NCBI GenBank assembly: GCA_030037815.1
Contig: JASHPZ010000022.1
Span: 1,782 to 65,781, forward strand
Length of the DNA stretch: 64,000 bases
Direction of reading: 5' to 3'
From: Thermoplasmata archaeon
GTDB lineage: Archaea; Thermoplasmatota; Thermoplasmata; Lutacidiplasmatales; UBA184
Shown: piece by piece, positions 27,787 through 40,108 of the stretch
Layout: the number at the start of each line of letters is the position of its first letter
Position numbering within the stretch: the first letter of the stretch is position 1
Translations under genes and position numbers: made by a program
Notes under the pieces: model-generated
What the model saw: the letters and a program-made list of their open reading frames with translations, nothing else
Told to the model about the DNA's origin: nothing
The model's database searches: none

Positions 27787-28404
27787 ATGCGCCGGTTCCT
27801 CCTCCTCGCGCACCGGGTCCCGGTCCGCGGCGGGTTCACGCTCAACGACCTCGCGGGCGGCGGCGGTCGGATGGACGAGGTCGCCCGGGCCGTCTCGACG
27901 GCGTTCACCCTCTCGAACGACCTCCGCCGCGACACCGAGATGACGGTCCTGTTCTCGGCCGAGCCCCCGCCGGCGGCCCGCAAGGTCCACCTGGTCGGGG
28001 CGCGGCTCCGCTACCTGAACCCGGACGAGCGGTCGACCGCCGCCCTGCTCAAGAACGCCCTCGTCCGGGCGGCCGACTTCCCGCGCGAGTTCGAGTCGTC
28101 CCCCGGGCTCCGCGTCGGTCCGGCCGACCCGCTCGACGAGCTGCGGGCGTTCCTGCGGGGACCCGGGACGGTCTGGCTGACCGAGTCGGGCCGCCCGGTC
28201 GCGGAGTGGGCGCCCCCCGGGTCGGACGTCGCCGCCGTGCTCTCGGACCCCGACGACCCGACCCCCGCGGAGGCCGAACTCCTCGGCGCGAGCGGGGTGC
28301 CGCGGTACTCGGTCGGCCCGCGATCGCTGCGCACGAGCCAGGTGGTCGACCTGTTCCACGCCGAGGTCGACCGCCGCGAGGCGGCCCGTCCCGTCACGCC
28401 GTGA
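27787..28404 (+). CDS. trmY: tRNA (pseudouridine54-N1)-methyltransferase TrmY (SPOUT, COG1901/DUF358).
   Basis: The N-terminus MRRFLLLAHRVPVRGGFTLNDLAGGGGRMDEVARAVSTAFTLSNDLRRD matches the TrmY consensus (M..F...a....t..f.L.DLpG..GRlDllcR....aFflS...RrD). Confidence 0.7.
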   Translation: MRRFLLLAHRVPVRGGFTLNDLAGGGGRMDEVARAVSTAFTLSNDLRRDTEMTVLFSAEPPPAARKVHLVGARLRYLNPDERSTAALLKNALVRAADFPREFESSPGLRVGPADPLDELRAFLRGPGTVWLTESGRPVAEWAPPGSDVAAVLSDPDDPTPAEAELLGASGVPRYSVGPRSLRTSQVVDLFHAEVDRREAARPVTP

Positions 28405-29392
28405 CGGCGTCCCGCACGGTCCGCGTGCGGAGCCCCCCGACCACGGCGGTCAGGTGGACGACCTCCCGCGGCTCGGGGCGGACCCGGGTCCCAAAGACGA
28501 GCCGCTCGGGCTCCCCGAGGCGCGTGCGCATCGCCCGCAGCACGCGGTCGAGGCAGCGGAGCGTGAAGTTCGACCCTCCCTCCAGGTGGACGAGGGCGCT
28601 CGTGCGGCCCGAGAAGTGGAAGTCGAGGAGCGAGCCCGACAGCGCCTCCTGGACGAGCCGCTCGGGCTCGGAGACGTGGTACTCCCCCGAGAGGAGGGTC
28701 GAGAGCCCCGAATCCCGGAGGTGGTTTTTGAGGGTCGCGAGGTCGACGTTCAACTGGGACGGGTGGTCGACCATGTCGACCAGGCTCGCGACCAGCGAGT
28801 GGAGGTAGGCGTTCCGCACCTGGAAGACGCGGTGGATCGGGAGCGACTCGAACCGGCGGAGCTTCTCGTTCGAAAGGGCGAGGAGGAGCCCCCCCATCTC
28901 CTCGAGCTCGTCCACGGTCGCGACCACGTTCTCCCGCCGGCTCGCGTTGGTCTCGAGCTCGACCTGGAACGGGAGGAAGACGACCGGGACGGGCAGCGTC
29001 TCGGTGCGGCGGAGCTGCCCCGCGAGGTACGGGAGCAGCGCGCTCCCGGTCCCGCCCCCGAGGCCAGCGAGCAGGAAGACGATCTCGAACGGCCGCAGCC
29101 GGCGGAGCAGCTCCTCGCGGCTCTCCTCGGCCGCCCGAAGGACCGCGTCGCGGTCGCCGCCGCTTCCGCGTCCGCGCAGTTCGCGGTGGGCGAGGAGGAT
29201 CCGCTCGTCCACGCCGACCCGCGCCAGGTGCTTCGCGTCCGTGTTGACGGCGATCGCGTGCGCGCCGGGGATCCCGAGCGCGAGGAGGTCCTGGACCGCC
29301 TCGCTGCCGGCACCGCCCAGGCCGACCACGGCGACCGACGGCGTGATCGCGAGCGAGGCCCACGCCTCGGGAGAATCGGGCTCGCCGGTCAT
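28394..29392 (-). CDS. FtsZ/tubulin-family GTPase. It is short (332 aa), divergent, has no C-terminal tail and has an altered T7 loop.
   Basis: The G-box is VAVVGLGGAGSEAV. A second motif is AVNTDAKHL. The tubulin signature is AGLGGGTGSA. The PVVFLPFQVE segment is present. The T7 loop reads QLNVDLATL where FtsZ has N.DFAD, so the second acidic residue is missing. Confidence 0.75.
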   Translation of the reverse strand: MTGEPDSPEAWASLAITPSVAVVGLGGAGSEAVQDLLALGIPGAHAIAVNTDAKHLARVGVDERILLAHRELRGRGSGGDRDAVLRAAEESREELLRRLRPFEIVFLLAGLGGGTGSALLPYLAGQLRRTETLPVPVVFLPFQVELETNASRRENVVATVDELEEMGGLLLALSNEKLRRFESLPIHRVFQVRNAYLHSLVASLVDMVDHPSQLNVDLATLKNHLRDSGLSTLLSGEYHVSEPERLVQEALSGSLLDFHFSGRTSALVHLEGGSNFTLRCLDRVLRAMRTRLGEPERLVFGTRVRPEPREVVHLTAVVGGLRTRTVRDAVTA

Positions 29393-29408
29393 CCGTCCCC
29401 CGTCCGCC

Positions 29409-29774
29409 CTACGGCGGGGGAGACCCTTCCGCGGCGACCGGCTCCCCTTCCCGGCGGTGCGTCCGGCCGGTCGGAGCGAGCTGCTCGATCCGGCTGCGGA
29501 TGTACTCGCGGACCGCGGAACGGACGGCGTCGTCCAGGCTGACGGACGCCCCCTCGCGGACGAACTCCTCGAGCCGGCTGTTGTCCTGCCGGGAGAGCTC
29601 GACCACGACCTTGCGGATGTTCTGCGGCGGCAGGTGGAGCTCGATGTACTGCTCGAGTCCCTCCCGGATCGTGTCGGAGATCGTCGGCGTGCCCTTCGCC
29701 TGCTGGATCTGCTTCAGCTTCTCGAGGAGATCCTGCGGGATCCGGACCGTCACCCGCTCCGACGTGTCGACCAT
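29409..29774 (-). CDS. Ribbon-helix-helix (CopG/Arc-like) DNA-binding protein, apparently with two RHH-like halves.
   Basis: The first half is VTVRIPQDLLEKLKQIQQAKG...REGLEQYIE. The second half is VVVELSRQDNSRLEEFVREG...VREYIRSR. It lies 16 nt upstream of the FtsZ-like gene. Confidence 0.7.
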   Translation of the reverse strand: MVDTSERVTVRIPQDLLEKLKQIQQAKGTPTISDTIREGLEQYIELHLPPQNIRKVVVELSRQDNSRLEEFVREGASVSLDDAVRSAVREYIRSRIEQLAPTGRTHRREGEPVAAEGSPPP

Positions 29775-29776
29775 GC

Positions 29777-29809
29777 TCGTCAGACAACACCCCTACCTTT
29801 GTCTGACGA
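29777..29809. promoter_or_regulatory. Perfect 11-bp inverted repeat TCGTCAGACAA-N11-TTGTCTGACGA. It sits immediately upstream of the RHH gene start and is a candidate auto-operator.
   Basis: Read from the sequence (ccATGctcgTCAGACAAcacccctacctTTGTCTGACGAac). RHH proteins typically bind such inverted repeats at their own promoters. Confidence 0.5.
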
Positions 29810-29952
29810 ACGACATATCGGGTTCCGACTATATCAAATCAGGGGAGCCGCGGGGCTTCGGGATTTAATCGGGCCCATCAGCCCTCGTGTGATTCTATTC
29901 GGGAGACTGTGATTTATTTGGCTACACCCGGCAACCGACAGTAGGGAGGCCG

Positions 29953-31029
29953 CTAGAGGGGTCTCCCCCCCTCAGTTGAGGGGGGTCTGGATGCCCTCAA
30001 TCTGAGTCCTACGTATCTGCGCAGGGCCAGTGCGATCGATAGTGCCATTTCTGCATCTGGTCGCTCTACGAGTTCATCCGGCCGCTCTGGGTGGGCACCA
30101 GCAGCGAGTAAGGACTTGACCGAACCTTGGTAAGCGAGCATGGCTTGAACTAAGTCCCCGAACGCATCAGTCATCTTCCGAGCTTTCTTCTCTGCTGATC
30201 CGAATCGATCCCCGAACGCGGAGTTCGAATTTGCCCCCAACTCGCGTTCCAAGGTCTCGACGACATCTCGGGACGCCGCTATCGAGAGCTTGTACTCCCC
30301 CGAAAGGAATTGCTTGACGGCATTTCTCAAGTAGACGTCCACTTGAGCAGAATTCTCAAAATTCTCTACGGGGACCTCATAGATCAACCAGTTACCATAC
30401 CCTAGGCCAGGGAGAAGTTTCTCAACCCATTTGCTCCTCTCGATTGTCAGAGTATGCATCCTTTCGTCGTGGCTCACGACTTCCAGGTCTTCCGTGTTGA
30501 ATGGGACCAGGTACGGCATCTTCCCCACGGGAAGGGCTCCCTCGTCGAACTCGTACCGGGCGATCCCCCCAAACCTGACTTGAATCCCAAAAGAGGGTTC
30601 GTTACCGGCTCGAGCGTCCTCGAGACCCTCGAGAACCGTTGGTTGGAGCGGAAACTGGAACTCGAACTCTACTTCGTAGCCCGCGTTGAGCACAAGGTTG
30701 GAAGTCCGAAGGGTGCGGGCGTACCCCTTCGCCACTAACGGCATGTTAACGAGGGACCCCTGAGGGCCAGCGGTCCACCTCAACCAGGCATCGGCCTGAA
30801 GGACCACAAACTGGACAGACTTGGCGTCGGTTCGCTCGATCTGAACGTTCGTACCTCCACCACTCGATGAAACTTGTACCAGGACTACCGCAGAGAGTAC
30901 TGGCATGAATCCGCTGTTGCCAGTGTCGAAGGACTTGAGCTCGAGATGGAAGAAACACTGCGGATTGAGTACCATCTTCCCACCCGCCGCTCGACCTGTA
31001 ACCTCTGCAGGCTTTGAGCCCCATCCCAT
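29953..31029 (-). CDS. Island hypothetical protein A.
   Basis: The ORF is 358 aa with protein-like composition. It lies downstream of the operon after a 455-nt gap. I recognise no family. Confidence 0.45.
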   Translation of the reverse strand: MGWGSKPAEVTGRAAGGKMVLNPQCFFHLELKSFDTGNSGFMPVLSAVVLVQVSSSGGGTNVQIERTDAKSVQFVVLQADAWLRWTAGPQGSLVNMPLVAKGYARTLRTSNLVLNAGYEVEFEFQFPLQPTVLEGLEDARAGNEPSFGIQVRFGGIARYEFDEGALPVGKMPYLVPFNTEDLEVVSHDERMHTLTIERSKWVEKLLPGLGYGNWLIYEVPVENFENSAQVDVYLRNAVKQFLSGEYKLSIAASRDVVETLERELGANSNSAFGDRFGSAEKKARKMTDAFGDLVQAMLAYQGSVKSLLAAGAHPERPDELVERPDAEMALSIALALRRYVGLRLRASRPPSTEGGRPL

Positions 31030-31484
31030 ACCGAGTTCCGCTAGTTTGTGCCCAGCCTATCGGAGCTATGGAAGCGCGAGCCGACCCCAGTCCGTTGGTA
31101 AAGTTAGACCATTTGCGTCCTCCTTACGGTTGAACTGCAGAAGTTTGCCTAACGTCATGGCCGAATGGACCGCCAGATGCCGATGCTCAGAGACCTCCCG
31201 ATGCTCGGGCCACGGGTGTGACAGGCATACAATTCAGAGGATCGACCTTAGCGGCAGGTTGTCCGTTCGACCCTCCCAATGCATCTCAGGTGGCCCTCGG
31301 CTGCTACTTCGGAATCCTGCACCGCAGGGCATGAGTTCCCCGCGCGTGCGCCTGCGAGAAGACAGCGGTCGGAATCGAGTCGGCATATTCCTTAGCGAGC
31401 CCCGGGTAGTTGCGGGAGCACCGGGCCGCAAGGCCTCCTTGAGCTCAGTGTCCGTTCATGAACCGGAACGTGGTGGAACCCACC

Positions 31485-32264
31485 CTACGGCCGCCCAGGC
31501 CTCGCCGTGGGATACCAGAGCGGTGCCTGGATGGGTCGGCTTGTGCCCAGCCGTTTCCCGATTGGATAGCAAGGCATCACGGGCATCTTTTCTACGATTG
31601 CAACCATTTCGGGCGGCCAACCTCCTTCGACAATGGTCGGGAAGTGATCGCTAAGTATCCCGTATACGACCGCCGGCAGATCGAGCGGGGGCGTTGGAAC
31701 CCGCGGGACTCCAGATTTTATTTGCGACTGCCGCTGAACGCATCTAGTACCGATCGCCTGCTCGGAAATACCGCCGAAGTCTATCTGTGCATGGAAGAGC
31801 GGATGATCTCTTTGGAAGTGCTTGTCGGGGTCGAATGCCATGTCGTAGTGGAGCCCCGCAAGGACTTGGGATGGTGCCCAGCGGGCCGGTGGTAGGTCAG
31901 GGCGGTCCGTGTCCGTTCGACGATAGTGGACCCGAACGACGGACGCTATGACCTCATAATTTCCGCCAGTCGCACCCCGTGTGGACTGTCTTATCTCCTG
32001 CTCAAATTGGATCGAAATCTCGCATGTTGACTTGCCGAGGCTCTGCGGCTTGATGGGGACCTGCAAGAAATGCAACGCGCAATCTCCTCCGCACGTAGCG
32101 GTTAGACAACCGACTCTTCCCTCCGGGTCGAAGTCTACTTGAATTTCGCCTGGTGTCGAGGGTCGAGCGTTCGGCAGCAATCCGCTGAGTCGTGTCCAAA
32201 ACTCTGAGTAACGTGAGAGGAGGACTGGCTTGTCCCTGAGACTCAGCCCGCCCGTCCTAAACAT
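31485..32264 (-). CDS. Island hypothetical protein B, His-rich (HYDMAFDPDKHFQRDHPLFH). It may be a metal-dependent enzyme.
   Basis: The ORF is 259 aa and lies 16 nt downstream of the receiver-like gene, so it is probably co-transcribed. Confidence 0.45.
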   Translation of the reverse strand: MFRTGGLSLRDKPVLLSRYSEFWTRLSGLLPNARPSTPGEIQVDFDPEGRVGCLTATCGGDCALHFLQVPIKPQSLGKSTCEISIQFEQEIRQSTRGATGGNYEVIASVVRVHYRRTDTDRPDLPPARWAPSQVLAGLHYDMAFDPDKHFQRDHPLFHAQIDFGGISEQAIGTRCVQRQSQIKSGVPRVPTPPLDLPAVVYGILSDHFPTIVEGGWPPEMVAIVEKMPVMPCYPIGKRLGTSRPIQAPLWYPTARPGRP

Positions 32265-32280
32265 GAACTCAATGACCTTT

Positions 32281-33357
32281 TCACAACGTGAGCCACGGGG
32301 GGAGCCGGGCGAACTCTCGTTTTCTAATTCGCGAGCGGTCCGCGCCCAACGGTATCAGCGCCATCGGACGTACCGAGTGTCTCTCGCAAACTGGTCGCTC
32401 GGACACGATACAAAAGTACCCCGCCCCTTCATGACCCTCCGCGCAACGACAGTGCGAGATTCCCCCTAACTTGCTCTGCGCGAGGTCGTATCCGGTGCCG
32501 TGGGTCGACGACGCCGGACTCCCGGTGGCGATGATCCGATCTAACTCGCAGGTCCACCAGTAGGGCCCTGTTTCTGAGAAGGGTCCCCGATAGACCGCGT
32601 CATCGAACAATCCCCGAACTTCAGCTCGTTCATTGAACTGTTGGTCGTCGATGTCAAGGTAGGATGCGGCCGCGGTCGCATTTAGAAGAACTCCCGCGAA
32701 ATGTAGCAGCTCGTTTACAACCCAGTATCCAAGTGTCGAAGCGACGATTCGAGTCTTCCGAGCCGAATCTAGCTTCCTGCTCGCCCTCACCACGGCGACG
32801 GGAGTCTTTGGGCCCCAGCGATACCGTTGCAGTGCGAGCGCTGCTTCGGCAGGGGCCTTCAACACGCTCTTGGCAAACTGATCCATCCTCTGAGTGGACG
32901 AGAGGTTCGAATTAGCGACCAGTTGGTCGAATCCCGAGGCATACGAAATCAAGAGTTGGGGTACACGTGACGACTGCTCAGCGACGTCAATCGATATCTC
33001 CCGATCTCGACTCCTTAGAAGATATTCAGTCCTCGTCGCCGCCCCAGGTTGAAAAGTATAGACGCAGACCGGGACGCCGATTTGCTGGCAGACCGTCTGC
33101 ACGCCGTCCCGGTCAACCAGCGGGTCGTACATTGTGAGGTCATAGTCCAACACGGCGAGACTCGCCACTCTGGGGGAGCTTAGAAAACGTCGAATCTGAC
33201 TGCGAAGTCGCATATCATAGGACTGCGCCGGTTCGTTTGGCCGTCTGGGCGGGGGGACGAAGCGAGCGGCGTTGGGCGTCGTCGCAACTTGAGATTCCAG
33301 CTGCTCGTGTAGCTCTTCATAGGGCTGCGGATCATCTTCAAAGAAAACTATGCGCAT
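32281..33357 (-). CDS. Receiver-like (REC) domain protein with a C-terminal Cys/His-rich effector domain of unknown function.
   Basis: The start is taken at the internal ATG (MRIVFFEDDP...). REC-like landmarks are the acidic pair (EDD), a candidate phospho-acceptor Asp (LAVLDYDL) and a Thr (VCVYT), with a loop insertion. The C-terminal cluster is HCRCAEGHEGAGYFCIVSERPVCERH. It lies 10 nt downstream of the GHKL/HK gene. Confidence 0.5.
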   Translation of the reverse strand: MRIVFFEDDPQPYEELHEQLESQVATTPNAARFVPPPRRPNEPAQSYDMRLRSQIRRFLSSPRVASLAVLDYDLTMYDPLVDRDGVQTVCQQIGVPVCVYTFQPGAATRTEYLLRSRDREISIDVAEQSSRVPQLLISYASGFDQLVANSNLSSTQRMDQFAKSVLKAPAEAALALQRYRWGPKTPVAVVRASRKLDSARKTRIVASTLGYWVVNELLHFAGVLLNATAAASYLDIDDQQFNERAEVRGLFDDAVYRGPFSETGPYWWTCELDRIIATGSPASSTHGTGYDLAQSKLGGISHCRCAEGHEGAGYFCIVSERPVCERHSVRPMALIPLGADRSRIRKREFARLPPWLTL

Positions 33358-33367
33358 ATCCTCTGAC

Positions 33368-35623
33368 CTAAAGTGGGAAGGCAACCTCAAATGCCGTGAC
33401 AAAGCCCTCAGGAGGTGCAGCGACCCTAATCTTCCCACCGACGGCCGTAACAGCACGCTTTACGATGAACAGCCCGAGCCCCAACCCGCCGGCTAGTGGT
33501 CCTGCAAGCTCTCGGGTTGTGGATACAAATGGGTCGAAAATGTAGTCCTTGATTTCCGGCGGTATTCCTGGTCCGGTGTCAGCGACACGAAGGATGTGCT
33601 CACCCTCAGTGTTCCGGGCCTCAATTCGGATCACGCGCGTGCCATCCTCTTTTGAGTGCATTAGTGCCTTGAGGGCATTCGTATAGAGGTTCAGAACGAC
33701 TGCCGAGTAGAGACCCCCCCAGACCTTCGGCGGGCGCATCCCTTCCTCCACCTTGTTCTCGGACTGAATCCTGCGCTTCGTAGCGATGTCCGAGAAGAGT
33801 CCCACTACGTGTTCAACAAGATCATACGGGCTGAACGGCTCTGGACCGACATCTGGTAGCCTGTGGAGGAATGTCTGCGAGTAGTCCATAAATGATCTGA
33901 GGCGATAAATCGAATCCTCCACCGACGTTCGGGCTTTCTCCATAGCAGCAGCGCGTCCGTCTGACTCGGCTCGTTTAAGCGCACTGACGGAATCCCTCAA
34001 AGAAGTCATCAAGGTCTTGGTCTCATGGGTCATGAAACTCGCGAGAACTCCGAGAAGTGAAGCAGACTCGACGGCAGCCAGCGCCTTTGACCTGGCCTCG
34101 TCGGTCCGGGTGTAACGTTCGGCAAGTTCCCTGAATGCGGCAAGAACCACGGTTTTTTCCGACGGGACAATGTCTCTACTCCGCTGAACTCGGAGGGCGG
34201 CGGCCGCGAGCGATTCACGGAAATCCTTGGCCTCAGTTTCGGCCTCTTCTCGGTCAATCTCTTGAACCCCACGGGCGTCGACAACTGCAAGGAGTTCGAC
34301 GGCGGTGATTACGAGTTGACGGAGTAGTCTGAACCCCTCGTTTTGGACAAGCCCCTGCCGGTCCATGGAGGGTTGAATTCTATCGATCTGGACGGCTCCC
34401 ACGGTCGACCGCTCACGAAAAGTTTCGATCGAGACCCAGCCGAGGACTTGGTGGTTCGCCGGGACGCGAAGATACGGGCTGTAACGGCCATCCGTCTCAA
34501 AAGTCGAGTCGGCGAGTAACTCGTCAGTTACAGGCGAGACCCATCGACGGAGGTTTCTTGCCATTCGGCCGGAAAGGTAGAGCCAGTCATCCTCGGGTTC
34601 CCCGTAGGGCTTAACCCGGATGCCCCGATCAACCAATCTAACGCCGCCCTGCTCCTGGAGGTAGGCGTGCGCCCGCCTCCCATCTGCGGTCGTGAGTCCA
34701 GAGAACACACCCGAGCGGTGCGGATAGAAACCTATCTCGCCTTGGAGGGGCCCAATCAACGCCTCCAATTTCGGAATTGTAGCAGTCCACTTGGAACTGA
34801 ACCGAGTCTCTTGGGTTTCCGGATTGCGGTAAGTAACCCGGTAGGTCAGCTTGCCGCCCTTGCTTGAGAACCGAACTCTGGCCAGCCATCGGTCCACTAT
34901 CTCACTGGTGGCGGTCTGAAGTTCAGTGCCGGATCCTGGCTCTCCGAAATACACTCGTAGGCCTGGGTCCTCTTCGGTCGACGAGGACGCTCGAGCTAGC
35001 CATTCTGGAATCGCTGGAGTGACTACGTCCAAAACCTGATTTGTGACTCTAGCCAACCTGGCCGAGTCCCAGTCGTCGGCGAGTTTTCCAATGCTCAGGT
35101 GGGTGTAACTCGCGTTGTCGGGCCGTGGCGAAAGAATACGGTAGTGTACCTTGATGTCCTTCAGCTCACGTCCCGGTTTGAATTTGGCCCAATCGAAATC
35201 CGAAGACAACCGAAGACGCTTCCCCGCCTCCCCAGAATCCGCTGTTGTGTCCAAGTTGAGAGTCAGGCCGAGACGCCGGACAGCAAAGCGTCCGACTCCC
35301 TTCGACCCGGTGAGTGGGCGTTTGAAGATTCGAGACGCGTCCGAGCCAAGTTTTGACGTGGTTCCGATGCGCATCCATCCAGAGAGAAATTCCCGTTCAT
35401 TCATCCCGGTCCCGTTGTCTTGTATGTGCAACTTTGGCGACGCACCCCCCTCGAGCCACAGATAGACTTCCGTCGCATCGGCATCAAACGAATTCTTAAT
35501 CAGCTCAGAAAGCGCGGTGTTTGGATCGACAATCAGTCGCTCTCCGAGCTCAGACAGAATTTGCGCGTCACCTGAGAACGTCGCGTCAGCTTCCCGTAGA
35601 GGGGGGCCCTCCGACTGAGCCAT
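33368..35623 (-). CDS. Dual-GHKL protein: an N-terminal MORC/MutL-like GHKL ATPase plus a C-terminal histidine kinase (HisKA + HATPase_c).
   Basis: N-terminal GHKL motifs are ELIKNSFDADATEV (motif I), IQDNGTGMNEREF (motif II) and GSKGVGRFAVRRLG (motif III). The C-terminal kinase has an H-box (SFMTHETKTLMTSL), an N-box (VVLNLYTNALKA), G1 (VADTGPGIPPE), an F-box (IFDPF) and G2 (GGLGLGLFIV). The protein is 751 aa. Confidence 0.8.
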   Translation of the reverse strand: MAQSEGPPLREADATFSGDAQILSELGERLIVDPNTALSELIKNSFDADATEVYLWLEGGASPKLHIQDNGTGMNEREFLSGWMRIGTTSKLGSDASRIFKRPLTGSKGVGRFAVRRLGLTLNLDTTADSGEAGKRLRLSSDFDWAKFKPGRELKDIKVHYRILSPRPDNASYTHLSIGKLADDWDSARLARVTNQVLDVVTPAIPEWLARASSSTEEDPGLRVYFGEPGSGTELQTATSEIVDRWLARVRFSSKGGKLTYRVTYRNPETQETRFSSKWTATIPKLEALIGPLQGEIGFYPHRSGVFSGLTTADGRRAHAYLQEQGGVRLVDRGIRVKPYGEPEDDWLYLSGRMARNLRRWVSPVTDELLADSTFETDGRYSPYLRVPANHQVLGWVSIETFRERSTVGAVQIDRIQPSMDRQGLVQNEGFRLLRQLVITAVELLAVVDARGVQEIDREEAETEAKDFRESLAAAALRVQRSRDIVPSEKTVVLAAFRELAERYTRTDEARSKALAAVESASLLGVLASFMTHETKTLMTSLRDSVSALKRAESDGRAAAMEKARTSVEDSIYRLRSFMDYSQTFLHRLPDVGPEPFSPYDLVEHVVGLFSDIATKRRIQSENKVEEGMRPPKVWGGLYSAVVLNLYTNALKALMHSKEDGTRVIRIEARNTEGEHILRVADTGPGIPPEIKDYIFDPFVSTTRELAGPLAGGLGLGLFIVKRAVTAVGGKIRVAAPPEGFVTAFEVAFPL

Positions 35624-37018
35624 CTATCGGCCCGCGGATCGTGGCGACTCGGTATAGGCCGATAGAATTGAGTTCATTTGGCCCACTTCGATGCGTCTCA
35701 TGCCCCCGACCCAGGGGACGCTACCGCGAGCGAAGTTCCAAGACTTAAGGTAGTTCACCAGGCGGCTAGGGGACTGCCTCGGAGTCCCAATGTGTATCGC
35801 GTGGACGGTACCGAGGTGGACAACCCCGCTCGGATTGCTCACAACTTTGAGGCCGCGAGAACTCGAGTACGCGCTGGAATAGAGGACTTTCCCGGGGATC
35901 GGCACGGTGTAGTCGTACCAAACCGCTCGAGCCCCGCAAGTACTGTTCTCTTGAATCGATTTGGGCACCGAATCCAACCATGCCCGTACGGCAGAATCGA
36001 GCCCTGGCGAGTCCGTCCTCAAGAGCCAACACCGAAGTCCGGCACGGACGTACCTAGCCGTGAATGCAGCTCGAGTGAGAGTGGTGAAGGTGTTTGGGAG
36101 TGGCCGAAGGGTGCCCACCGCTGGCCAAACCGCGTCAAGCGGAATTCGCGCCTCAATACGTTCCGCCTCTGTCAAGACGAACCAGTTTCGTGAGCCTGGG
36201 CTCAGCCCTCTGAAGGCATACAGGTGATCCGATCGTGGCGAGTGCCCTCTCGTGGAAATCAATCGCCTCGAGCCGCCACCCTTTCTTGGGCGAAGGTCGG
36301 CGCGCAGTTTCACCAAGCTGACAGTGGAGCATGACTCGTTTTTTTCGATCAGAGTGATCCCTGCGTTCGCCCTCTTTCCGATGTCAAAATCCACCGTGGA
36401 AGGGAGCTCGAATAGTGTAACCTTCCACTTGTGTTTCAGAATGTAACTCCTTAGTGCTCGGGTAGCAGCTTTCTGGATCCAGTCAGACGGTAAGACCATG
36501 CAGACTCTCCCATCTGCCGACGTCCTCAGAGTTGCGAACCAAAGAAAGTAGCAGGCGAGGTTTCCCAGCGGGCCAGGGTCAACCCCAGCTTCCTGTTTTA
36601 TCAATCGACGTGCGCGATCACGCCACAGCGAGTCCAAGTCTTGCACTCGCATGAAGGGCGGATTTCCTATTGCTAATTCGAACTCGCCCTTCGCTTCCAG
36701 GGCGTCCCGACACCGAATCTTTGCATTCCGAGGAAGAGTGAGGGTTCGTACTTTGGGGTCCAGCTCATACCCTAGGTACGACCCATACTTTCCGTAGAGC
36801 GCGAATCGGCCGTCCCCCGCACCCAGATCGAGGACAGTGTGCGGCTTGAACCGACCTTTCGTACACAGCCGCCAAGCCGCCGAGACTACGGGATATGGAG
36901 TCACAACCTGGCACCGTCGAAGGCTCGGCAAGTTACCCCGCGTCCCGGGTCGGCTGGAAACCTGTCCGGGAATAGTCTTCACCGGAAATGGTCGGGGGTT
37001 AGACTTTGAACTGATCAT
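35624..37018 (-). CDS. N6-adenine-type DNA methyltransferase (gamma-like order: motif I precedes NPPF) with a large C-terminal presumptive target-recognition region.
   Basis: Motif I is VLDLGAGDGRF. Motif IV is IGNPPF. The protein is 464 aa. Its stop abuts the GHKL/HK start. Confidence 0.78.
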   Translation of the reverse strand: MISSKSNPRPFPVKTIPGQVSSRPGTRGNLPSLRRCQVVTPYPVVSAAWRLCTKGRFKPHTVLDLGAGDGRFALYGKYGSYLGYELDPKVRTLTLPRNAKIRCRDALEAKGEFELAIGNPPFMRVQDLDSLWRDRARRLIKQEAGVDPGPLGNLACYFLWFATLRTSADGRVCMVLPSDWIQKAATRALRSYILKHKWKVTLFELPSTVDFDIGKRANAGITLIEKNESCSTVSLVKLRADLRPRKGGGSRRLISTRGHSPRSDHLYAFRGLSPGSRNWFVLTEAERIEARIPLDAVWPAVGTLRPLPNTFTTLTRAAFTARYVRAGLRCWLLRTDSPGLDSAVRAWLDSVPKSIQENSTCGARAVWYDYTVPIPGKVLYSSAYSSSRGLKVVSNPSGVVHLGTVHAIHIGTPRQSPSRLVNYLKSWNFARGSVPWVGGMRRIEVGQMNSILSAYTESPRSAGR

Positions 37019-37168
37019 GAGCCCCGAAACCCCAAGACGCGCATCTACGTAGACTTACCGACGTCGACGTCGGGTCTCCCCTGTGAACTACATGAGCTGC
37101 CCCTCGGAACCGGAGGGTGGGCGCCCCGCAATGGGGGCCGCGGGTAGACGCGCCGCTCTGCCTGTTTG

Positions 37169-37513
37169 CTATTTACGGTGTGGGAAGTCGATTGCCTTCA
37201 GCGCCTGATTTCTGACCGATTCGGGAACGGAGCCGTCGCCCCCGATTTCTGCGAGTAGTTGGAGTCCTGCTGCTCCAGTCTTCGCCAGGGCTGTGACCGC
37301 GTGTTCTTTGACGCTGGACGGAGATTGAGGATCCCTGATGGTCTTCGATAGCGACTTTGCCAACTTGGCGGCCTCGTCAGTCTGCACCCAAGCCTCGATT
37401 GCCTCGACCAAGCCCTTGCTGAGGTCTCCCTTCCGGCCGCCGAACCGCTGGGCCACGGTAATCCGCAGCCGTTTGGCCAGTGCGTCTGGGATAACCGCGT
37501 CAATTCGAGCCAT
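37169..37513 (-). CDS. RHH (CopG/MetJ/Arc-like) transcriptional regulator with a C-terminal HEAT-like helical repeat. It is the first gene of the island operon.
   Basis: The start is taken at the internal ATG (MARIDAVIPDALAKRLRITVAQRFGGRKGDLSKGLVEAIEAW is an RHH). The longer listed start (37579) would overlap the divergent transposase start. Confidence 0.55.
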   Translation of the reverse strand: MARIDAVIPDALAKRLRITVAQRFGGRKGDLSKGLVEAIEAWVQTDEAAKLAKSLSKTIRDPQSPSSVKEHAVTALAKTGAAGLQLLAEIGGDGSVPESVRNQALKAIDFPHRK

Positions 37514-37550
37514 TGGTAATCTCTCAGAGTCACCCCATAGATGAACATTT

Positions 37551-38957
37551 GTGTCTACCCACTTATCCGAGTTGCTCATATACTTCCGTGATATGTGTGT
37601 AAGTGGTTACACACGCAATATGACGAAACTCGGCGAGGGCGATATGGTTGCACGCCTGCGGGCGTTCGAGCTCATCGCTGCTAACGAAGAGCCGATCATT
37701 CCTGTCAGCCGGTCGACCTACAGGGTGCACTCCCAATCGCGGGACAGCTACTACACGATTTCTCGTAAGCAGGGTCACTGGTGGTGTACCTGCGACGGGT
37801 TTGACGCTGCCCGGGGGCGGTGCAAACACATCTGGGCGGTCGAGATTTGGCGGGAGCCGGCGAAACACTATGTTCAGAACTCGTCCGAATCGTCTTCCCA
37901 CAAGAGTTACGGTCAGGATTGGCCCGCATACGACGCCGGCCAGCAGGATGAACACCGACTCTTCGATCGCCTACTTTGGGGACTCCTCGAAGACGTAGTC
38001 GAGCCCGTCCGCCCAGTAGGCAAGCGCGGGCGGCCTCCAATCCCGCTCCGTGTTCAGCTGCTTCACTCGATCCGGAAAGTTCACCTGAACAAGGCAGCGC
38101 GGGAGGTCAAGGGACTGCTCGACACGATCTATGCGGGCGGGCTTGGAATCGTGGAAGGGATACCAAACTACGCGACCCCATCCCGCCTTTTCAACCAGCC
38201 CTTCGTCTCAGAGATTCTTGTTGGCTTGATAGAGCGCTCTAGCCTTCCCCTGAAGGACATCGAGGAGACTCGAACTGTCGCGATCGACTCATCAGGTTTC
38301 TGCCTCACCTGCATGAGTGCCTATTGCACCGAGAAGCACGATCCGACTCGGAAGCACAAGTGGATCAAGGCTCACGTCATCATCGGGGTGAAAACTCACA
38401 TCATACTGGACGTCCGGATCACAGATGAACACGGTGCGGACTGCCCGCAGCTTATCCCGATGCTGGAGGACCTGGTTCGCCGAGGATTCCGACCCAGGAA
38501 AGTGCTCGGCGACAAGGCCTACCTGTCACGGGAGAACTACCGGGTCGCCCGGACCATCGGAGCCGACGCTTACTTTCCGTTCAAGCCGAACAGTGTCGGA
38601 ACCTCGAAAGGGAGCTGCGAGTGGGCCCGAAAGTACCACCAATTCCAACTAAAACGCGAGGAGTTCGACCACGAGTATCGCCAACGGAGCAACGTCGAGG
38701 CGGTCTTCTCCGCCATAAAGAGAAAGCTTGGTGAGCCCCTCTTCTCGAAGAACGTCCTTTCACAATTCAACGAGCTCCTCGCCAAGCTGCTCGCCTACAA
38801 CATCGGTATCGTAATCCACGAGATGCACGAGCATGGGATTGATCCCGAGGTCAACTGCCCACCGGATCCCCCCTATGTCCCACCTGTCCCGGTCTTCGAG
38901 CCCGCTCCCTGTGATTCAAATGGGGAGGTTGTGATTGAATTCGAGGTAGTATCCTAG
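37551..38957 (+). CDS. Transposase: an N-terminal SWIM zinc finger plus a DDE domain of the IS4/IS5 superfamily.
   Basis: The SWIM motif is WWCTCDGFDAARGRCKH. The DDE residues lie in AIDSSGF and LGDKAY. HEYRQRSNVEAVFSAIK matches the Y-(2)-R-(3)-E-(6)-K signature. The start is GTG. Confidence 0.8.
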   Translation: MSTHLSELLIYFRDMCVSGYTRNMTKLGEGDMVARLRAFELIAANEEPIIPVSRSTYRVHSQSRDSYYTISRKQGHWWCTCDGFDAARGRCKHIWAVEIWREPAKHYVQNSSESSSHKSYGQDWPAYDAGQQDEHRLFDRLLWGLLEDVVEPVRPVGKRGRPPIPLRVQLLHSIRKVHLNKAAREVKGLLDTIYAGGLGIVEGIPNYATPSRLFNQPFVSEILVGLIERSSLPLKDIEETRTVAIDSSGFCLTCMSAYCTEKHDPTRKHKWIKAHVIIGVKTHIILDVRITDEHGADCPQLIPMLEDLVRRGFRPRKVLGDKAYLSRENYRVARTIGADAYFPFKPNSVGTSKGSCEWARKYHQFQLKREEFDHEYRQRSNVEAVFSAIKRKLGEPLFSKNVLSQFNELLAKLLAYNIGIVIHEMHEHGIDPEVNCPPDPPYVPPVPVFEPAPCDSNGEVVIEFEVVS

Positions 38958-39067
38958 TAAAATCCCAAAGCCGGAGCCGCGGATGCGGGGGCGTCGCGCG
39001 CTCGTCGCCATCCGTACGGATCGACCCGAGCGGGGCCGCGTCCGCCGGGCCGTCCGTCTCTCGGGCG

Positions 39068-40108
39068 GTGGGCAACGCCTTACCTGCGAGCGGCACGGCC
39101 TCCCGATCGCGAGTGAACGCCCTCGACCCGGCGCAGTACCGCCTGCGCGCGCTTCGCCTCGACGACCTGCCGGCCGTCGCGGCGATCGGCAATCGGATCC
39201 ACCCGGTCCACCGGACGACCGAGGAGGTCGCGGAGTGGCGGACCGCGTTCGACTCCCCGACCCACTTCCGGCAGGAGCTCGTCGCGGTCCACGTGCCCAC
39301 CGACGCGGTGGTCGCGTTCGCCTCCATCGAGCACCACCCGCACATGCAGCACCCCCAGAAGTTCTGGGTCGGGGTCGAGGTCGACCCGGACCACCGCGGG
39401 CACGGCGTCGGCTCCGCCCTCTACGAGGAGCTCGACCGGACCGCCCGCTCCCTCCACGCCGTCCGGCTCTGGTGCTCGACGCAGGAGGCCGACCGGGGCG
39501 CGGTCGCGTTCGGCGACCGCCGCGGATTCCGCACCGTACGGAGGGTCTGGACCTCCCGGCTCGACGTCGCGTCGGCCCACCTCGAGCGGTTTCCCGACCG
39601 CACGGCGTCGCTCGAACGCGACGGGGTCCGGTTCACGACGCTCGAAGCGGAAGGGTTCGACCGGCCGGAAGTGCGCCGGGAGATGTACGAGCTCTACCGG
39701 GCGACGCACCGCGACATCCCGTCGATCGGGACGCGGTCGGACGTGACCTACGAGGAGTTCGAGCGTTCGGAGGTCGACCGGCCGGGGGTGCGGGCGGGGA
39801 CCGTCCTGCTCGCCGCCCGGGGCGACCGGTACGTCGGCGTCTCGAGCATCGAGCCGCTCGCCGCGGACGCGTCCACGCTCGTGGTCGGGTTCACGGGCAC
39901 GTTGAAGGAGCTCCGGGGACGGGGCGTGGCGACCGAACTGAAGCGACGCGCGGTCGAGTTCGCGCGGGCGCGGGGGTTCCGTTCGATCCTGACGAACAAC
40001 GACTCCCTGAACGCCCCGATCTGGTCGATCAACGAGCGCCTCGGCTTCCGTCCCGAGGCGACGTACCTCCAGCGCGAGCGGCGGTTGGACGCGGAGACGA
40101 CCGCCTAA
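39068..40108 (+). CDS. GNAT-family N-acetyltransferase with tandem GNAT domains.
   Basis: The acetyl-CoA-binding motifs are HRGHGVGSALY and LRGRGVATELKRRAVEFARARG. The start may be a downstream GTG (VNALDP...). Confidence 0.72.
   Translation: MGNALPASGTASRSRVNALDPAQYRLRALRLDDLPAVAAIGNRIHPVHRTTEEVAEWRTAFDSPTHFRQELVAVHVPTDAVVAFASIEHHPHMQHPQKFWVGVEVDPDHRGHGVGSALYEELDRTARSLHAVRLWCSTQEADRGAVAFGDRRGFRTVRRVWTSRLDVASAHLERFPDRTASLERDGVRFTTLEAEGFDRPEVRREMYELYRATHRDIPSIGTRSDVTYEEFERSEVDRPGVRAGTVLLAARGDRYVGVSSIEPLAADASTLVVGFTGTLKELRGRGVATELKRRAVEFARARGFRSILTNNDSLNAPIWSINERLGFRPEATYLQRERRLDAETTA

What the first reader, a model, noticed from the sequence alone, without database searches (positions are those of the whole stretch)
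28394..29812. An RHH protein with a perfect 11-bp inverted-repeat operator, followed by a short, divergent FtsZ/tubulin-family GTPase: a candidate partition-like or cytomotive module at the island edge.
The 332-aa FtsZ-family protein keeps the GTP-binding boxes (GLGGAGS, GGGTGSA, NTDAKHL). Its T7 synergy loop reads NVDLAT where FtsZ has NxDFAD, so the catalytic Asp that activates GTP hydrolysis in the neighbouring subunit is absent. It also lacks the C-terminal linker and tail of canonical FtsZ1/FtsZ2. The combination suggests a slowly hydrolysing, filament-stabilised paralogue.

The protein is encoded 16 nt downstream of a double-RHH DNA-binding protein. That protein's own start is immediately preceded by TCGTCAGACAA-N11-TTGTCTGACGA.

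An RHH DNA-binding adaptor plus a tubulin-like filament former resembles bacterial type III (TubZ/TubR-like) segregation cassettes, even though the adaptor fold here is RHH rather than wHTH. The pair directly abuts a mobile island.

Alternatively it is a chromosomal non-canonical FtsZ paralogue with a dedicated RHH repressor.
Basis: partly seen in the sequence, partly recalled or inferred. Interest (0 to 1): 0.6.

Follow-up and report, generated by a model that had tools for sequence, protein, structure and literature searches.

The report
Divergent archaeal cdrS–ftsZ2 cell-division operon
This is not a plasmid-style DNA-segregation cassette but the chromosomal cell-division operon known from other archaea (a small DNA-binding regulator followed by the FtsZ2 division protein), here in a fast-evolving form whose FtsZ2 has lost the residue that normally triggers GTP hydrolysis.

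Summary

The partition-module reading is not supported. The pair sits in the core chromosome of a high-GC Thermoplasmata lineage. Its gene order is conserved in more than 80 related loci that lack the neighbouring island, and it has no plasmid or virus relatives.

It is the counterpart of the known cdrS–ftsZ2 operon:
- Both RHH halves match CdrS in profile comparisons.
- A Methanomassiliicoccales genome has the same GNAT–tandem-RHH–ftsZ2 arrangement with a canonical FtsZ2.
- The protein scores best on FtsZ2 profiles.

The variant features are:
- The catalytic T7 Asp, equivalent to H. volcanii FtsZ2 D231, is Ser or Thr in every family sequence examined (120 database proteins, 83 loci).
- The signature motif reads GGGTGSA instead of GGGTG[TS]G.
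- The C-terminal tail is very short, and absent in this genome.
- The regulator is a tandem duplication.
- A 9-bp-arm operator, invariant in 66 of 66 loci, lies where the transcription start is predicted.

At least one related genome also carries a canonical FtsZ1.

Verdict: a new variant of a known kind, of moderate interest.

The parts
28394..29392 (-). Divergent FtsZ2-type gene (332 aa). The T7 loop reads NVDLAT, so the catalytic Asp is Thr220. The T4 signature reads GGGTGSA. There is no C-terminal tail.
   Evidence: ORF. Pfam Tubulin 3.6e-24 and FtsZ_C 4e-10. TIGR00065 scores 177.8 bits against a cut-off of 295.2. FtsZ2 profile about 250 bits versus about 210-220 for FtsZ1 and bacterial profiles. 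hhalign score 382 versus 325 and 329. AlphaFold pLDDT 85, with best fold matches to FtsZ.
29393..29408 (-). 16-nt intergenic spacer GGCGGACGGGGGACGG, with a Shine-Dalgarno-like GGGGGA 4 nt before the ftsZ start. This suggests co-transcription and coupled expression.
   Evidence: Sequence. Gaps of 12-16 nt in relatives L001, L003 and L085.
29409..29774 (-). Tandem (double) ribbon-helix-helix protein, CdrS-like, 121 aa. RHH domain 1 covers about residues 6-48, RHH domain 2 about residues 53-97, followed by a conserved tail HRREGEPVAAEGSPPP.
   Evidence: Pfam RHH_1 on residues 7-45. NCBIfam best hit is CdrS at 29.9 bits. hhalign of the N-half versus a CdrS set gives 98% probability, the C-half versus CdrS 96%, and N-half versus C-half 92%. 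An ortholog in Methanomassiliicoccales locus L006 scores 58 bits on the CdrS model.
29777..29809 (-). Putative operator. In the window it is the inverted repeat TCGTCAGACAA-N11-TTGTCTGACGA. The conserved core is GTCAGACAA-N11-TTGTCTGAC, which is two GTCNGAC palindromes 22 bp apart. It lies at -35 to -3 relative to the ATG and overlaps the predicted transcription start.
   Evidence: Invariant in 66 of 66 family loci. The same 22-bp register of GTCAGAC boxes follows a TATA box in L006.
29814..29819 (-). Conserved GATATG box between the TATA box and the operator. Its role is unknown; it may be an initiator or an extension of the operator.
   Evidence: Conserved in nearly all 66 loci. In some lineages the embedded ATG is followed by an in-frame stop, so it is not the start codon.
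29829..29838 (-). TATA-box-like element TTTGATATAG (family consensus TTCATATAC) at -64 to -55 from the ATG. This places the predicted transcription start at the left operator arm.
   Evidence: Sequence conservation stops immediately upstream of this element.

Best explanation
The locus is the Thermoplasmata version of the archaeal cdrS-ftsZ2 cell-division operon, vertically inherited in the core chromosome.

Regulator. The first gene encodes a tandem duplication of a CdrS-like RHH domain. One chain can therefore form the two-stranded beta-sheet 'dimer' by itself. I infer that two such chains bind the two GTCNGAC palindromes, 22 bp (two helical turns) apart, which overlap the predicted transcription start about 21 nt downstream of the TATA box. 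Binding there would repress the operon's own promoter (autoregulation).

FtsZ2-type protein. The second gene, 16 nt downstream and probably co-transcribed, is the lineage's FtsZ2 orthologue after accelerated divergence. It keeps the FtsZ fold and most nucleotide-contacting residues, so it probably still binds GTP and joins filaments. Its T7 loop has Thr or Ser where the catalytic Asp should be (E. coli D212, H. volcanii FtsZ2 D231). It therefore probably cannot activate GTP hydrolysis in the subunit below it.

Predicted role. The lineage also has a canonical FtsZ1. The most likely role is a slowly hydrolysing or non-hydrolysing, filament-stabilising partner of FtsZ1 in the division ring. Most family members keep a short FtsZ2-like C-terminal peptide, which is the likely SepF-binding tail. 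The sub-clade of this window has lost it.

Shown: homology, gene order, motif states, operator conservation, purifying selection. Inferred: DNA binding and repression, co-transcription, GTP binding, loss of GTPase activation, co-assembly with FtsZ1.
For: Chromosomal and vertically inherited:
- RHH-FtsZ-(convergent TrmY)-DUF6015 lies near ribosomal protein genes on 2.3-Mb and 1.8-Mb contigs.
- 79 of 86 family loci have the RHH gene upstream.
- The region has host GC of 71-72%, against 57% for the island.

cdrS-ftsZ2 identity:
- The literature describes RHH cdrS co-transcribed with ftsZ2 and conserved across Euryarchaeota (PMC7439475, PMC8406309).
- In named genomes an RHH gene sits directly upstream of FtsZ2-type genes and of none of the 17 FtsZ1-type genes examined. 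The genomes are Haloferax, whose CdrS scores 123.9 bits and whose FtsZ2 ends ..NNGLDVIR as published, plus MG-IV, Methanoculleus and Borrarchaeum.
- Both halves of the RHH protein match CdrS (hhalign 98% and 96% probability).
- Methanomassiliicoccales UBA280 has the same GNAT(-)/tandem-RHH/FtsZ2 order, with a canonical FtsZ2 (TIGR00065 356 bits, T7 NLDFAD).

FtsZ2 affinity:
- HMM about 250 bits versus about 210-220 bits.
- hhalign score 382 versus 325 and 329.
- Of 6 diagnostic columns, 3 match FtsZ2 and none matches FtsZ1.
- Tails ending P[LIVA][FLV][VA][HRD] resemble FtsZ2 tails.

Variant features are fixed and the gene is under selection:
- T7 is Ser or Thr in 120 of 120 database relatives and 83 of 83 loci.
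- GGGTGSA occurs in 118 of 120.
- dN/dS is 0.15-0.28.

Other support:
- The catalytic position equals D231 of Haloferax FtsZ2.
- The operator is invariant in 66 of 66 loci, and conservation ends at the TATA box.
- A canonical FtsZ1-type protein (P0407) and a family member (P0060) share a longest-contig length of 283,637 bp.
- The structure model is a confident FtsZ fold, TM 0.85 and rmsd 2.0 A to S. aureus FtsZ.
Against: - The family is a very long branch, only 30-34% identical to any other FtsZ. A neighbour-joining tree could not place it. The FtsZ2 assignment therefore rests on profiles, gene order and the tail motif, not on a resolved phylogeny.
- I could not inventory a whole genome, so a second, canonical FtsZ2 elsewhere is not excluded.
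- The RHH protein scores far below the halophile-specific CdrS cut-off (29.9 versus 100 bits).
- H. volcanii CdrS was not reported to bind its own promoter, so autoregulation here is a departure, not an inheritance.
- The operator arms never vary, so neither DNA-level nor RNA-level function is demonstrated. The repeat also folds as a -19.5 kcal/mol RNA hairpin.
- The AlphaFold model of the RHH protein was of low confidence (pLDDT 51).
- No biochemical data exist. Ser or Thr might retain some catalytic assistance, and the first T7 Asp (D217) is kept.
Confidence: 0.72

Rival explanations
1. Type III (TubZ/TubR-like) segregation or cytomotive module. The RHH protein would be a centromere-binding adaptor on the inverted repeat, and the FtsZ-like filament would move DNA of the adjacent mobile island or of a plasmid or virus.
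For: An adaptor-like DNA-binding protein is encoded directly upstream of a tubulin-superfamily GTPase. A T7 change that would stabilise filaments is present. A 57%-GC island starts about 100 nt upstream of the promoter.
Against: - The pair has host GC content and the same neighbours in relatives that have no island. In relatives FTHFS lies 140-690 nt upstream of the RHH gene (next gene but one), so the island is an insertion between them.
- The protein is FtsZ-type: FtsZ_C domain present, Tubulin_2 only 15.9 bits against a cut-off of 27, and the best PDB matches are FtsZ with no TubZ among them.
- There are no plasmid, phage or viral-contig relatives closer than generic FtsZ at under 30% identity.
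- There is only one operator copy, and no repeat array, in the window or in 474 kb of family loci.
- The RHH protein is homologous to the transcription factor CdrS.
Confidence: 0.03
2. An extra, neofunctionalised FtsZ paralogue rather than the FtsZ2 orthologue. It would be a GTP-binding but non-polymerising or capping protein that antagonises or regulates the FtsZ1 (and a separate FtsZ2) ring, or serves another scaffold role.
For: - Both superfamily signature motifs are broken, and the TIGR00065 score is only 178-198 bits against more than 355 for canonical FtsZ1 and FtsZ2.
- The branch is very long.
- The tail is lost in this sub-clade.
- T7-dead FtsZ2 is dominant-negative in H. volcanii (bioRxiv 10.1101/2020.06.04.133736).
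- The genome inventory is incomplete.
Against: - Positional orthology with the canonical FtsZ2 of Methanomassiliicoccales UBA280: the same GNAT and tandem-RHH neighbours.
- FtsZ2 profile preference and an FtsZ2-like tail.
- Polymer-interface and nucleotide-binding residues are largely conserved, and the predicted fold matches the open (T-state) FtsZ conformation.
- No second FtsZ2-type gene was seen in any family locus.
Confidence: 0.2
3. The inverted repeat acts at the RNA level, as a 5'-UTR hairpin controlling translation or mRNA stability of the RHH gene, rather than as a DNA operator for the RHH protein.
For: The repeat folds into a 13-bp stem of -19.5 kcal/mol, z = -3.6. It ends 2 nt before the start codon. 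The 11-nt loop (AAGATAGGGGTC-like, with a GGGG run) is itself conserved. The Methanomassiliicoccales counterpart can also form a weaker hairpin, -12.2 kcal/mol, z = -2.0.
Against: - No compensatory changes are seen. The only variable stem positions, the outer 2 bp, change on one side without compensation.
- The left arm plus its flank TCGTCAGACAAAG is invariant beyond the symmetric part.
- In L006 the boxes keep their distance from the TATA box (about 19-21 nt) and their 22-bp register, but not their distance from the start codon: 15 nt against 4 nt.
- Whether the left arm is transcribed at all depends on an unmapped transcription start.
- RHH proteins typically bind such short repeats in their own promoters (general knowledge of the CopG, Arc and MetJ families).
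Confidence: 0.15

Closest known systems
cdrS-ftsZ2 operon of Halobacterium salinarum and Haloferax volcanii (PMC7439475, PMC8406309)
   Same: A small RHH regulator gene lies immediately upstream of, and in the same orientation as, the FtsZ2-type gene, in the core chromosome. Both RHH domains are homologous to CdrS. The arrangement was seen here in Haloferax, MG-IV, Methanoculleus and Borrarchaeum.
   Different: - The regulator is a 121-aa tandem duplication, not a 55-61-aa single domain, and scores 29.9 bits against the 100-bit CdrS cut-off.
- A strictly conserved operator sits on its own promoter. In haloarchaea the operon is controlled by CdrL, and CdrS ChIP sites did not include its own promoter.
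- No CdrL is present.
- The FtsZ2 lacks the catalytic T7 Asp and has almost no linker or tail.
Archaeal FtsZ2 family (reference H. volcanii HVO_0581)
   Same: FtsZ fold with an FtsZ_C domain. Best profile match is FtsZ2. FtsZ2-diagnostic residues are present (PS before T7, H269, A109). Most family members have a terminal hydrophobic-basic peptide. Positional orthology to a canonical Thermoplasmata FtsZ2.
   Different: - NxDxx[D/E] reads NVDLA[T/S].
- GGGTG[T/S]G reads GGGTGSA.
- There is a 4-residue insertion after the T5 region.
- The linker is 11-13 aa instead of about 50-70 aa, and absent in the window.
- Only 30-34% identity to any other FtsZ, and TIGR00065 scores 178 bits against 356-403 for canonical FtsZ2.
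FtsZ T7-loop point mutants (E. coli D212 substitutions from general knowledge; H. volcanii FtsZ1 D250A and FtsZ2 D231A, bioRxiv 10.1101/2020.06.04.133736)
   Same: The same position is altered. Such mutants bind GTP and assemble, but hydrolysis and disassembly are blocked.
   Different: Those are laboratory mutants that are non-functional and dominant-inhibitory. Here the substitution is fixed and under purifying selection in a whole lineage, presumably with compensating changes.
Alpha/beta-tubulin heterodimer (beta-tubulin has Lys where alpha-tubulin has the catalytic Glu254; from general knowledge)
   Same: Two paralogous subunits, of which only one keeps a catalytic T7 residue. Here the lineage has a canonical FtsZ1 plus a T7-deficient FtsZ2.
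   Different: No evidence here of an obligate heterodimer or alternating polymer. This is an analogy only.
TubZ/TubR/tubC type III plasmid and phage partition systems
   Same: A DNA-binding protein gene lies next to a tubulin-superfamily GTPase gene.
   Different: - TubZ belongs to a different family (Tubulin_2 or TubZ type), and TubR is a winged helix-turn-helix protein.
- tubC is a repeat array.
- Those systems sit on plasmids or phages.
- None of these features holds here.
Tandem-RHH single-chain proteins such as F-plasmid TraY (from memory, not tested here), and classical RHH autorepressors CopG, Arc, MetJ and omega
   Same: Two RHH motifs in one chain could form the DNA-binding beta-sheet intramolecularly. 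Short repeated operator boxes lie in the protein's own promoter.
   Different: No detectable specific sequence relationship beyond the RHH superfamily. The function here is linked to cell division, not plasmid biology.

Membership tests
Tubulin/FtsZ superfamily, FtsZ branch | Tubulin/FtsZ GTPase domain plus FtsZ-type C-terminal domain | tested here: met
   Pfam PF00091 scores 86.5 bits (cut-off 33) and PF12327 scores 40.3 bits (cut-off 27). AlphaFold model pLDDT 85, TM 0.85 to S. aureus FtsZ, with best E-values to M. jannaschii FtsZ.
Tubulin/FtsZ superfamily, FtsZ branch | GTP-binding signature GGGTG[T/S]G (as cited in PMC12583498) | tested here: not met
   The sequence reads GGGTGSA, with the last Gly replaced by Ala118. 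This form occurs in 118 of 120 relatives.
Tubulin/FtsZ superfamily, FtsZ branch | GTP-hydrolysis (T7) motif NxDxx[D/E] | tested here: not met
   The motif reads NVDLAT. It is Ser or Thr in 120 of 120 database relatives and 83 of 83 loci.
Tubulin/FtsZ superfamily, FtsZ branch | NCBIfam TIGR00065 (ftsZ equivalog) trusted cut-off | tested here: not met
   177.8 bits against a cut-off of 295.2. Canonical FtsZ1 and FtsZ2 controls score 356-403 bits.
Archaeal FtsZ2 | Groups with FtsZ2 rather than FtsZ1, bacterial FtsZ or CetZ | tested here: inconclusive
   Profiles favour FtsZ2 by 30-40 bits, and hhalign gives 382 against 325 and 329. Group labels were validated with Haloferax FtsZ2 and haloarchaeal FtsZ1. 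The neighbour-joining tree is dominated by the long branch, and no maximum-likelihood tree was possible.
Archaeal FtsZ2 | Gene order: cdrS-type RHH gene immediately upstream | tested here: met
   16-nt gap. The same arrangement was found in named FtsZ2 loci and in none of the FtsZ1 loci. The GNAT/tandem-RHH/FtsZ2 order is shared with Methanomassiliicoccales UBA280.
Archaeal FtsZ2 | C-terminal tail that mediates SepF binding (PMC12583498) | tested here: not met
   The window protein ends at the globular domain (..VRDAVTA). Most relatives keep an 11-13-aa tail ending P[LIVA][FLV][VA][HRD]. SepF binding itself cannot be tested with these tools.
CdrS (RHH cell-division regulator) | RHH domain homologous to CdrS | tested here: met
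   hhalign of the N-half gives 98% probability (E 3e-13) and the C-half 96% (E 2e-9) against a CdrS alignment. CdrS is the best NCBIfam hit.
CdrS (RHH cell-division regulator) | NCBIfam NF058555 equivalog cut-off; small single-domain protein of about 55-61 aa | tested here: not met
   29.9 bits against a cut-off of 100. The protein is a 121-aa tandem RHH. The model is specific to halophiles; the Methanomassiliicoccales ortholog scores 58 bits.
CdrS (RHH cell-division regulator) | Co-transcription with ftsZ2 and control of division genes | not testable with these tools
   Only the 12-16-nt spacing and an SD-like motif are available. Operator-like boxes upstream of ftsZ1 in some relatives are a hint.
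TubZ/TubR/tubC type III partition system | TubZ-family GTPase | tested here: not met
   Pfam Tubulin_2 scores 15.9 bits against a cut-off of 27. No TubZ appears among the 52 PDB sequence hits or the top 50 fold hits.
TubZ/TubR/tubC type III partition system | Location on a plasmid, phage or other mobile replicon | tested here: not met
   Core-chromosome gene order. No close relatives in plasmid, phage or viral collections.
TubZ/TubR/tubC type III partition system | Centromere made of repeat arrays bound by a winged helix-turn-helix adaptor | tested here: not met
   A single two-box operator with no further copies. The adaptor is an RHH protein.
CetZ | Closer to CetZ and tubulin than to FtsZ | tested here: not met
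   PDB CetZ chains 4b46, 4b45 and 3zid give E values of 5e-8 to 6e-7, against 5e-44 for FtsZ.

The most novel reading that the evidence does not exclude
In this soil and peat Thermoplasmata lineage the division ring may be built from a tubulin-like division of labour. A canonical FtsZ1 would supply the only catalytic T7 loop. The T7-deficient FtsZ2 would form interfaces at which GTP is not hydrolysed, giving an alpha/beta-tubulin-style heteropolymer, or a GTP-locked FtsZ2 scaffold, that evolved independently within FtsZ. Its dosage would be set by a self-repressing single-chain (tandem) CdrS.
Probability: 0.15. Interest if true: 0.75.

Novelty: new variant of a known kind. Interest (0 to 1): 0.42.

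Why it matters
FtsZ2 is thought to drive constriction in wall-less archaea. In H. volcanii its T7 Asp is essential, and the D231A mutant is dominant-inhibitory. A whole, environmentally abundant lineage has fixed Ser or Thr at that position under purifying selection, while keeping a canonical FtsZ1. That is a natural experiment on whether FtsZ2 needs its own GTPase-activating loop, and on how two FtsZ paralogues share work.

Three practical points follow:
- The tandem-RHH regulator with an invariant operator gives a simple, directly testable regulatory circuit for archaeal division outside the halophiles.
- NCBI names the family members it labels 'hypothetical protein' because they miss the FtsZ model cut-off, so they are easy to overlook in division-gene surveys.
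- RHH plus FtsZ adjacency in archaea should be read as cdrS-ftsZ2 before a partition system is proposed.

Tried and rejected
- Neighbour-joining tree of 156 FtsZ cores. The family is a long branch attaching near the midpoint root, which is uninformative. I replaced it with profile-HMM, hhalign and diagnostic-site comparisons.
- AlphaFold model of the RHH protein from a shallow alignment. pLDDT was 51, so it was not used for a fold search. Only the helix pattern was noted.
- Genome-collection scan with a broad FtsZ2 alignment. It still gave named FtsZ1 and FtsZ2 references.
- The one family member found there (L005, a nanopore MAG) has a frameshifted gene, probably from assembly errors. It was not used.
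- Attempt to show FtsZ1 and the family gene on one contig. Success came only through the identical longest-contig length of 283,637 bp for P0060 and P0407. The ENA record for P0407 was hidden as a 'similar place'. The 2.3-Mb and 1.8-Mb contigs could not be searched as a whole.
- Search for further operator copies in the window and in 474 kb of family loci: none found.
- AATCAC-type repeats upstream of the promoter in the window and in L001 are not conserved in other loci and were dropped.
- Search for direct repeats flanking the island: nothing convincing.
- Supplementary tables of PMC7439475, which would show whether Thermoplasmata were in their gene-order list, are not held.
- P0246 and P0247, apparent 46-64% relatives, are frameshifted copies of the same family and not intermediates.

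Full report
**Observation.**
The minus strand of the window carries a 332-aa ORF (28394-29392) and, 16 nt upstream of it, a 121-aa ORF (29409-29774).
- The larger protein matches Pfam Tubulin (3.6e-24) and FtsZ_C (4e-10).
- It reaches only 177.8 bits on the NCBIfam ftsZ equivalog TIGR00065, whose cut-off is 295.2.
- Its best solved relative is M. jannaschii FtsZ1 (5e-44). In that alignment LNVDLATLK pairs with INVDFADVK.
- The smaller protein matches RHH_1 over residues 7-45, and its best NCBIfam hit is the haloarchaeal regulator CdrS at 29.9 bits.
- TCGTCAGACAA-N11-TTGTCTGACGA lies at 29777-29809, 2 nt before the RHH start codon.

Two qualifications apply.
- GGGTGSA is a broken version of the superfamily signature GGGTG[T/S]G.
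- A perfect 11-bp inverted repeat with a short spacer is expected about 1.9 times in shuffled versions of this 72%-GC window, and one is observed. The repeat is therefore not significant on its own.

**Where the window comes from.**
The window is 72% GC with a 57%-GC block at about 29.9-39 kb. The FtsZ-like protein is 100% identical to a protein on a 67-kb NCBI contig. Its named relatives are all 'Thermoplasmata archaeon' MAGs, mostly from peat and soil metagenomes.

**The pair is chromosomal, not mobile.**
- On 2.3-Mb and 1.8-Mb contigs of relatives the order is RHH, FtsZ-like, convergent TrmY, DUF6015. It lies a few kilobases from ribosomal protein S13/S4/S11, RNA polymerase subunit and Pelota genes, with no island. 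The order recurs in L085.
- In a metagenome scan, 79 of 86 family loci had the RHH gene upstream of the FtsZ-like gene.
- In relatives the formate-tetrahydrofolate ligase gene lies 140-690 nt upstream of the RHH gene, separated by one gene. In the window it is at 40105-41742, beyond the low-GC block.
- That block carries three unknown ORFs, a MORC-like ATPase, an Eco57I-like methyltransferase, a small RHH_6 protein and a DDE transposase. The island is therefore an insertion next to the operon's promoter.
- tblastn against plasmid and phage collections gave only generic FtsZ matches below 30% identity. A viral-contig scan gave nothing.

**It is the cdrS-ftsZ2 arrangement.**
Published work shows that in Halobacterium and Haloferax a small RHH protein, CdrS, is co-transcribed with ftsZ2. 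The same work reports that the gene pair is conserved across Euryarchaeota (PMC7439475, PMC8406309).

I recovered named reference loci from a genome scan and classified their FtsZ genes with profile HMMs built from three clades of a representative search. The labels were validated against the literature.
- The Haloferax protein ending EVEKNNGLDVIR carries the FtsZ2 peptide used for antibodies in bioRxiv 10.1101/2020.06.04.133736. It scores FtsZ2 above FtsZ1.
- Haloarchaeal proteins ending DIDYVE or DIDFV[DG], matching or resembling the FtsZ1 antibody peptide (..EDIDYVE), score FtsZ1 above FtsZ2.
- An RHH ORF lies directly upstream of the FtsZ2-type gene in Haloferax, where the 61-aa protein scores 123.9 bits on the CdrS model. 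The same is true in Marine Group IV, Methanoculleus and the Asgard archaeon Borrarchaeum. It was found upstream of none of the 17 FtsZ1-type genes examined.

The Methanomassiliicoccales MAG UBA280 (locus L006) is the key comparison.
- It has an approximately 106-aa tandem RHH protein clearly collinear with ours: SERVT[IV]RIP ... P..I.K..VEL ... S[IV]S[VL]DDAVR[NS]AVREY[VI]R.
- That protein lies upstream of a canonical FtsZ2 (TIGR00065 356 bits, T7 NLDFAD).
- The same divergent GNAT acetyltransferase lies on the other side, as in the family loci.
- Profile-profile comparison shows that both halves of our protein are CdrS-like RHH domains: N-half 98% probability, C-half 96%, N-half against C-half 92%.

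The AlphaFold model of the RHH protein was poor (pLDDT 51). It does show the expected helix-helix pattern twice.

**What kind of FtsZ it is.**
- The family forms a single isolated 50%-identity cluster. The next genuine relatives are only 30-34% identical. The apparent intermediates P0246 and P0247 are frameshifted copies of the same family.
- A neighbour-joining tree merely shows a long branch.
- Family members score about 250 bits on the FtsZ2 profile, against 210-220 bits on the FtsZ1 and bacterial profiles.
- hhalign gives 382 against 325 and 329.
- Three of six FtsZ1/FtsZ2-diagnostic columns match FtsZ2, and none matches FtsZ1.
- The 340-344-aa majority of the family ends in an 11-13-aa tail, P[LIVA][FLV][VA][HRD]. 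This resembles FtsZ2 termini such as ..LDVIR.
- The AlphaFold model is a confident FtsZ fold (pLDDT 85). It has TM 0.85 and rmsd 2.0 A to S. aureus FtsZ, and its best E-values are to M. jannaschii FtsZ. No TubZ or CetZ appears among the top matches.

Together with the positional evidence, I conclude it is the lineage's FtsZ2 orthologue after accelerated divergence. A robust phylogeny is still missing.

**The unusual features are real and fixed.**
- The second T7 Asp is Ser or Thr in all 120 database relatives and all 83 loci. Nearly all of about 145 other FtsZ representatives keep Asp.
- In Haloferax FtsZ2 the motif NLDYAD places that Asp at position 231. This is exactly the residue whose D231A mutant fails to complement and disturbs division in H. 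volcanii.
- GGGTGSA replaces GGGTG[TS]G in 118 of 120 relatives.
- Other nucleotide-contact positions stay invariant between the family and the lineage's FtsZ1: the T1 glycines, NTD, the T3 glycines, PF..E, N175 and D217.
- dN/dS against relatives is 0.15-0.28, so the gene is under purifying selection.
- The window's protein and four other loci lack the C-terminal tail altogether.
- A canonical FtsZ1-type protein (P0407; TIGR00065 374 bits, intact T7) and a family member (P0060) share a longest-contig length of 283,637 bp. The lineage therefore has at least FtsZ1 plus this protein.

**The operator.**
In 66 of 66 family loci with enough upstream sequence, the region from a TATA-like box to the start codon is nearly invariant. 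Its layout is:
- TATA-like box, consensus TTCATATAC, at -64 to -55.
- Then 21 nt.
- GTCAGACAA at -33 to -25.
- Then 11 nt.
- TTGTCTGAC at -13 to -5.
- Then 4 nt and the ATG.

Conservation stops immediately upstream of the TATA box. The outer two base pairs that make the window's arms 11 bp long vary on one side only, so the conserved arms are 9 bp.

Each arm contains the palindrome GTCNGAC, and the two copies are 22 bp apart. L006 has GTCAGAC-N15-GTCAGAC in the same register, about 19 nt after TTTATATA, but at a different distance from its start codon.

With an archaeal TATA box centred about 26 nt upstream of the transcription start, the left box overlaps the predicted start. That is a typical repressor position, although this step is an inference.

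The repeat would also form a -19.5 kcal/mol RNA hairpin. Because the arms never vary there is no covariation test, so an RNA-level role stays open as a minority alternative.

**Mechanism proposed.**
A single-chain, tandem-RHH CdrS homologue binds the two GTCNGAC boxes and represses its own operon. The operon also encodes the lineage's FtsZ2.

That FtsZ2 probably still binds GTP and assembles. It probably cannot activate hydrolysis in the neighbouring subunit. It would therefore act as a slowly turning-over or stabilising component alongside the canonical FtsZ1.

The most novel reading not excluded is an alpha/beta-tubulin-like division of catalytic labour between FtsZ1 and FtsZ2.

**Verdict.**
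- The partition-module interpretation is rejected.
- It is a new variant of a known kind. I found no description of a T7-deficient FtsZ2 lineage or of a tandem CdrS in the papers I could search, but that search was limited.

Noticed in passing
window 29900-39000: A 57%-GC island is inserted between the formate-tetrahydrofolate ligase gene (40105-41742) and the RHH promoter. It holds:
- three ORFs without any family match (29953-31029, 31485-32264, 32281-33456);
- a 751-aa MORC-like protein with two HATPase domains (33368-35623);
- an Eco57I-like methyltransferase (35624-37018);
- a small RHH_6 protein (37169-37579);
- a DDE_Tnp_1 plus SWIM transposase (37551-38957).

It is possibly a defence island. 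No flanking direct repeats were found.
   Followed up: partly
L168:1380-1503, L169:1380-1503, L077:3745-3868: The ftsZ1 promoters of three high-GC Thermoplasmata relatives carry GAGCGTCNGACGCTC followed by (G)CAGACAAAC or GTCTGACAAAC, about 25 nt after a TATA box. This resembles the cdrS-like operator half-site TCGTCAGACAAAG. Two lower-GC relatives (L086, L167) lack it. It hints that the RHH regulator also controls ftsZ1, as CdrS binds upstream of ftsZ1 in H. volcanii.
   Followed up: partly
window 29409-29474 (RHH residues 100-121): The C-terminal tail of the RHH protein, HRREGEPVAAEGSPPP, is almost invariant across the family although it lies outside both RHH domains. Its function is unknown; it may be a partner-binding peptide.
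   Followed up: no
window 28394-28404: The 3' ends of the FtsZ-like gene and the convergent tRNA pseudouridine methyltransferase TrmY gene (27787-28404) overlap by 11 nt. In tail-bearing relatives the overlap is larger (38 nt in L001). There is no room for a terminator between them.
   Followed up: no
proteins P0245, P0248, P0249 (representative search): These proteins of 744-840 aa contain two complete FtsZ domains in tandem, that is, single-chain FtsZ 'dimers'. They were among the best non-family hits.
   Followed up: no
proteins P0297, P0331, P0335, P0278: FtsZ1-type proteins of 700-889 aa with long, low-complexity, Pro/Ala-rich linkers and a conserved helical C-terminal module.
   Followed up: no
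L034:2588-4981: A Thermoplasmata MAG (RS_5_45, 54% GC) has two FtsZ genes in tandem: a 373-aa FtsZ directly upstream of its FtsZ1-type gene.
   Followed up: no
L005:3900-5100: The family gene in the nanopore-derived complete chromosome OY970259.1 is broken by several frameshifts, while the adjacent RHH gene is intact. This is most likely assembly error rather than a pseudogene.
   Followed up: partly
window 29850-29915 and L001:9470-9540: Three copies of an AAT(A/C)AAATCAC-like motif, spaced about 20-25 nt apart, lie upstream of the TATA box in the window and in L001. They are absent from the other family loci, so they are lineage-specific or chance.
   Followed up: partly
family members in NCBI records: NCBI labels the family members that carry a name 'hypothetical protein', because they score 178-198 bits against the 295-bit ftsZ cut-off. 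JGI calls them FtsZ. Surveys of archaeal division genes that rely on NCBI names would miss this FtsZ2.
   Followed up: yes
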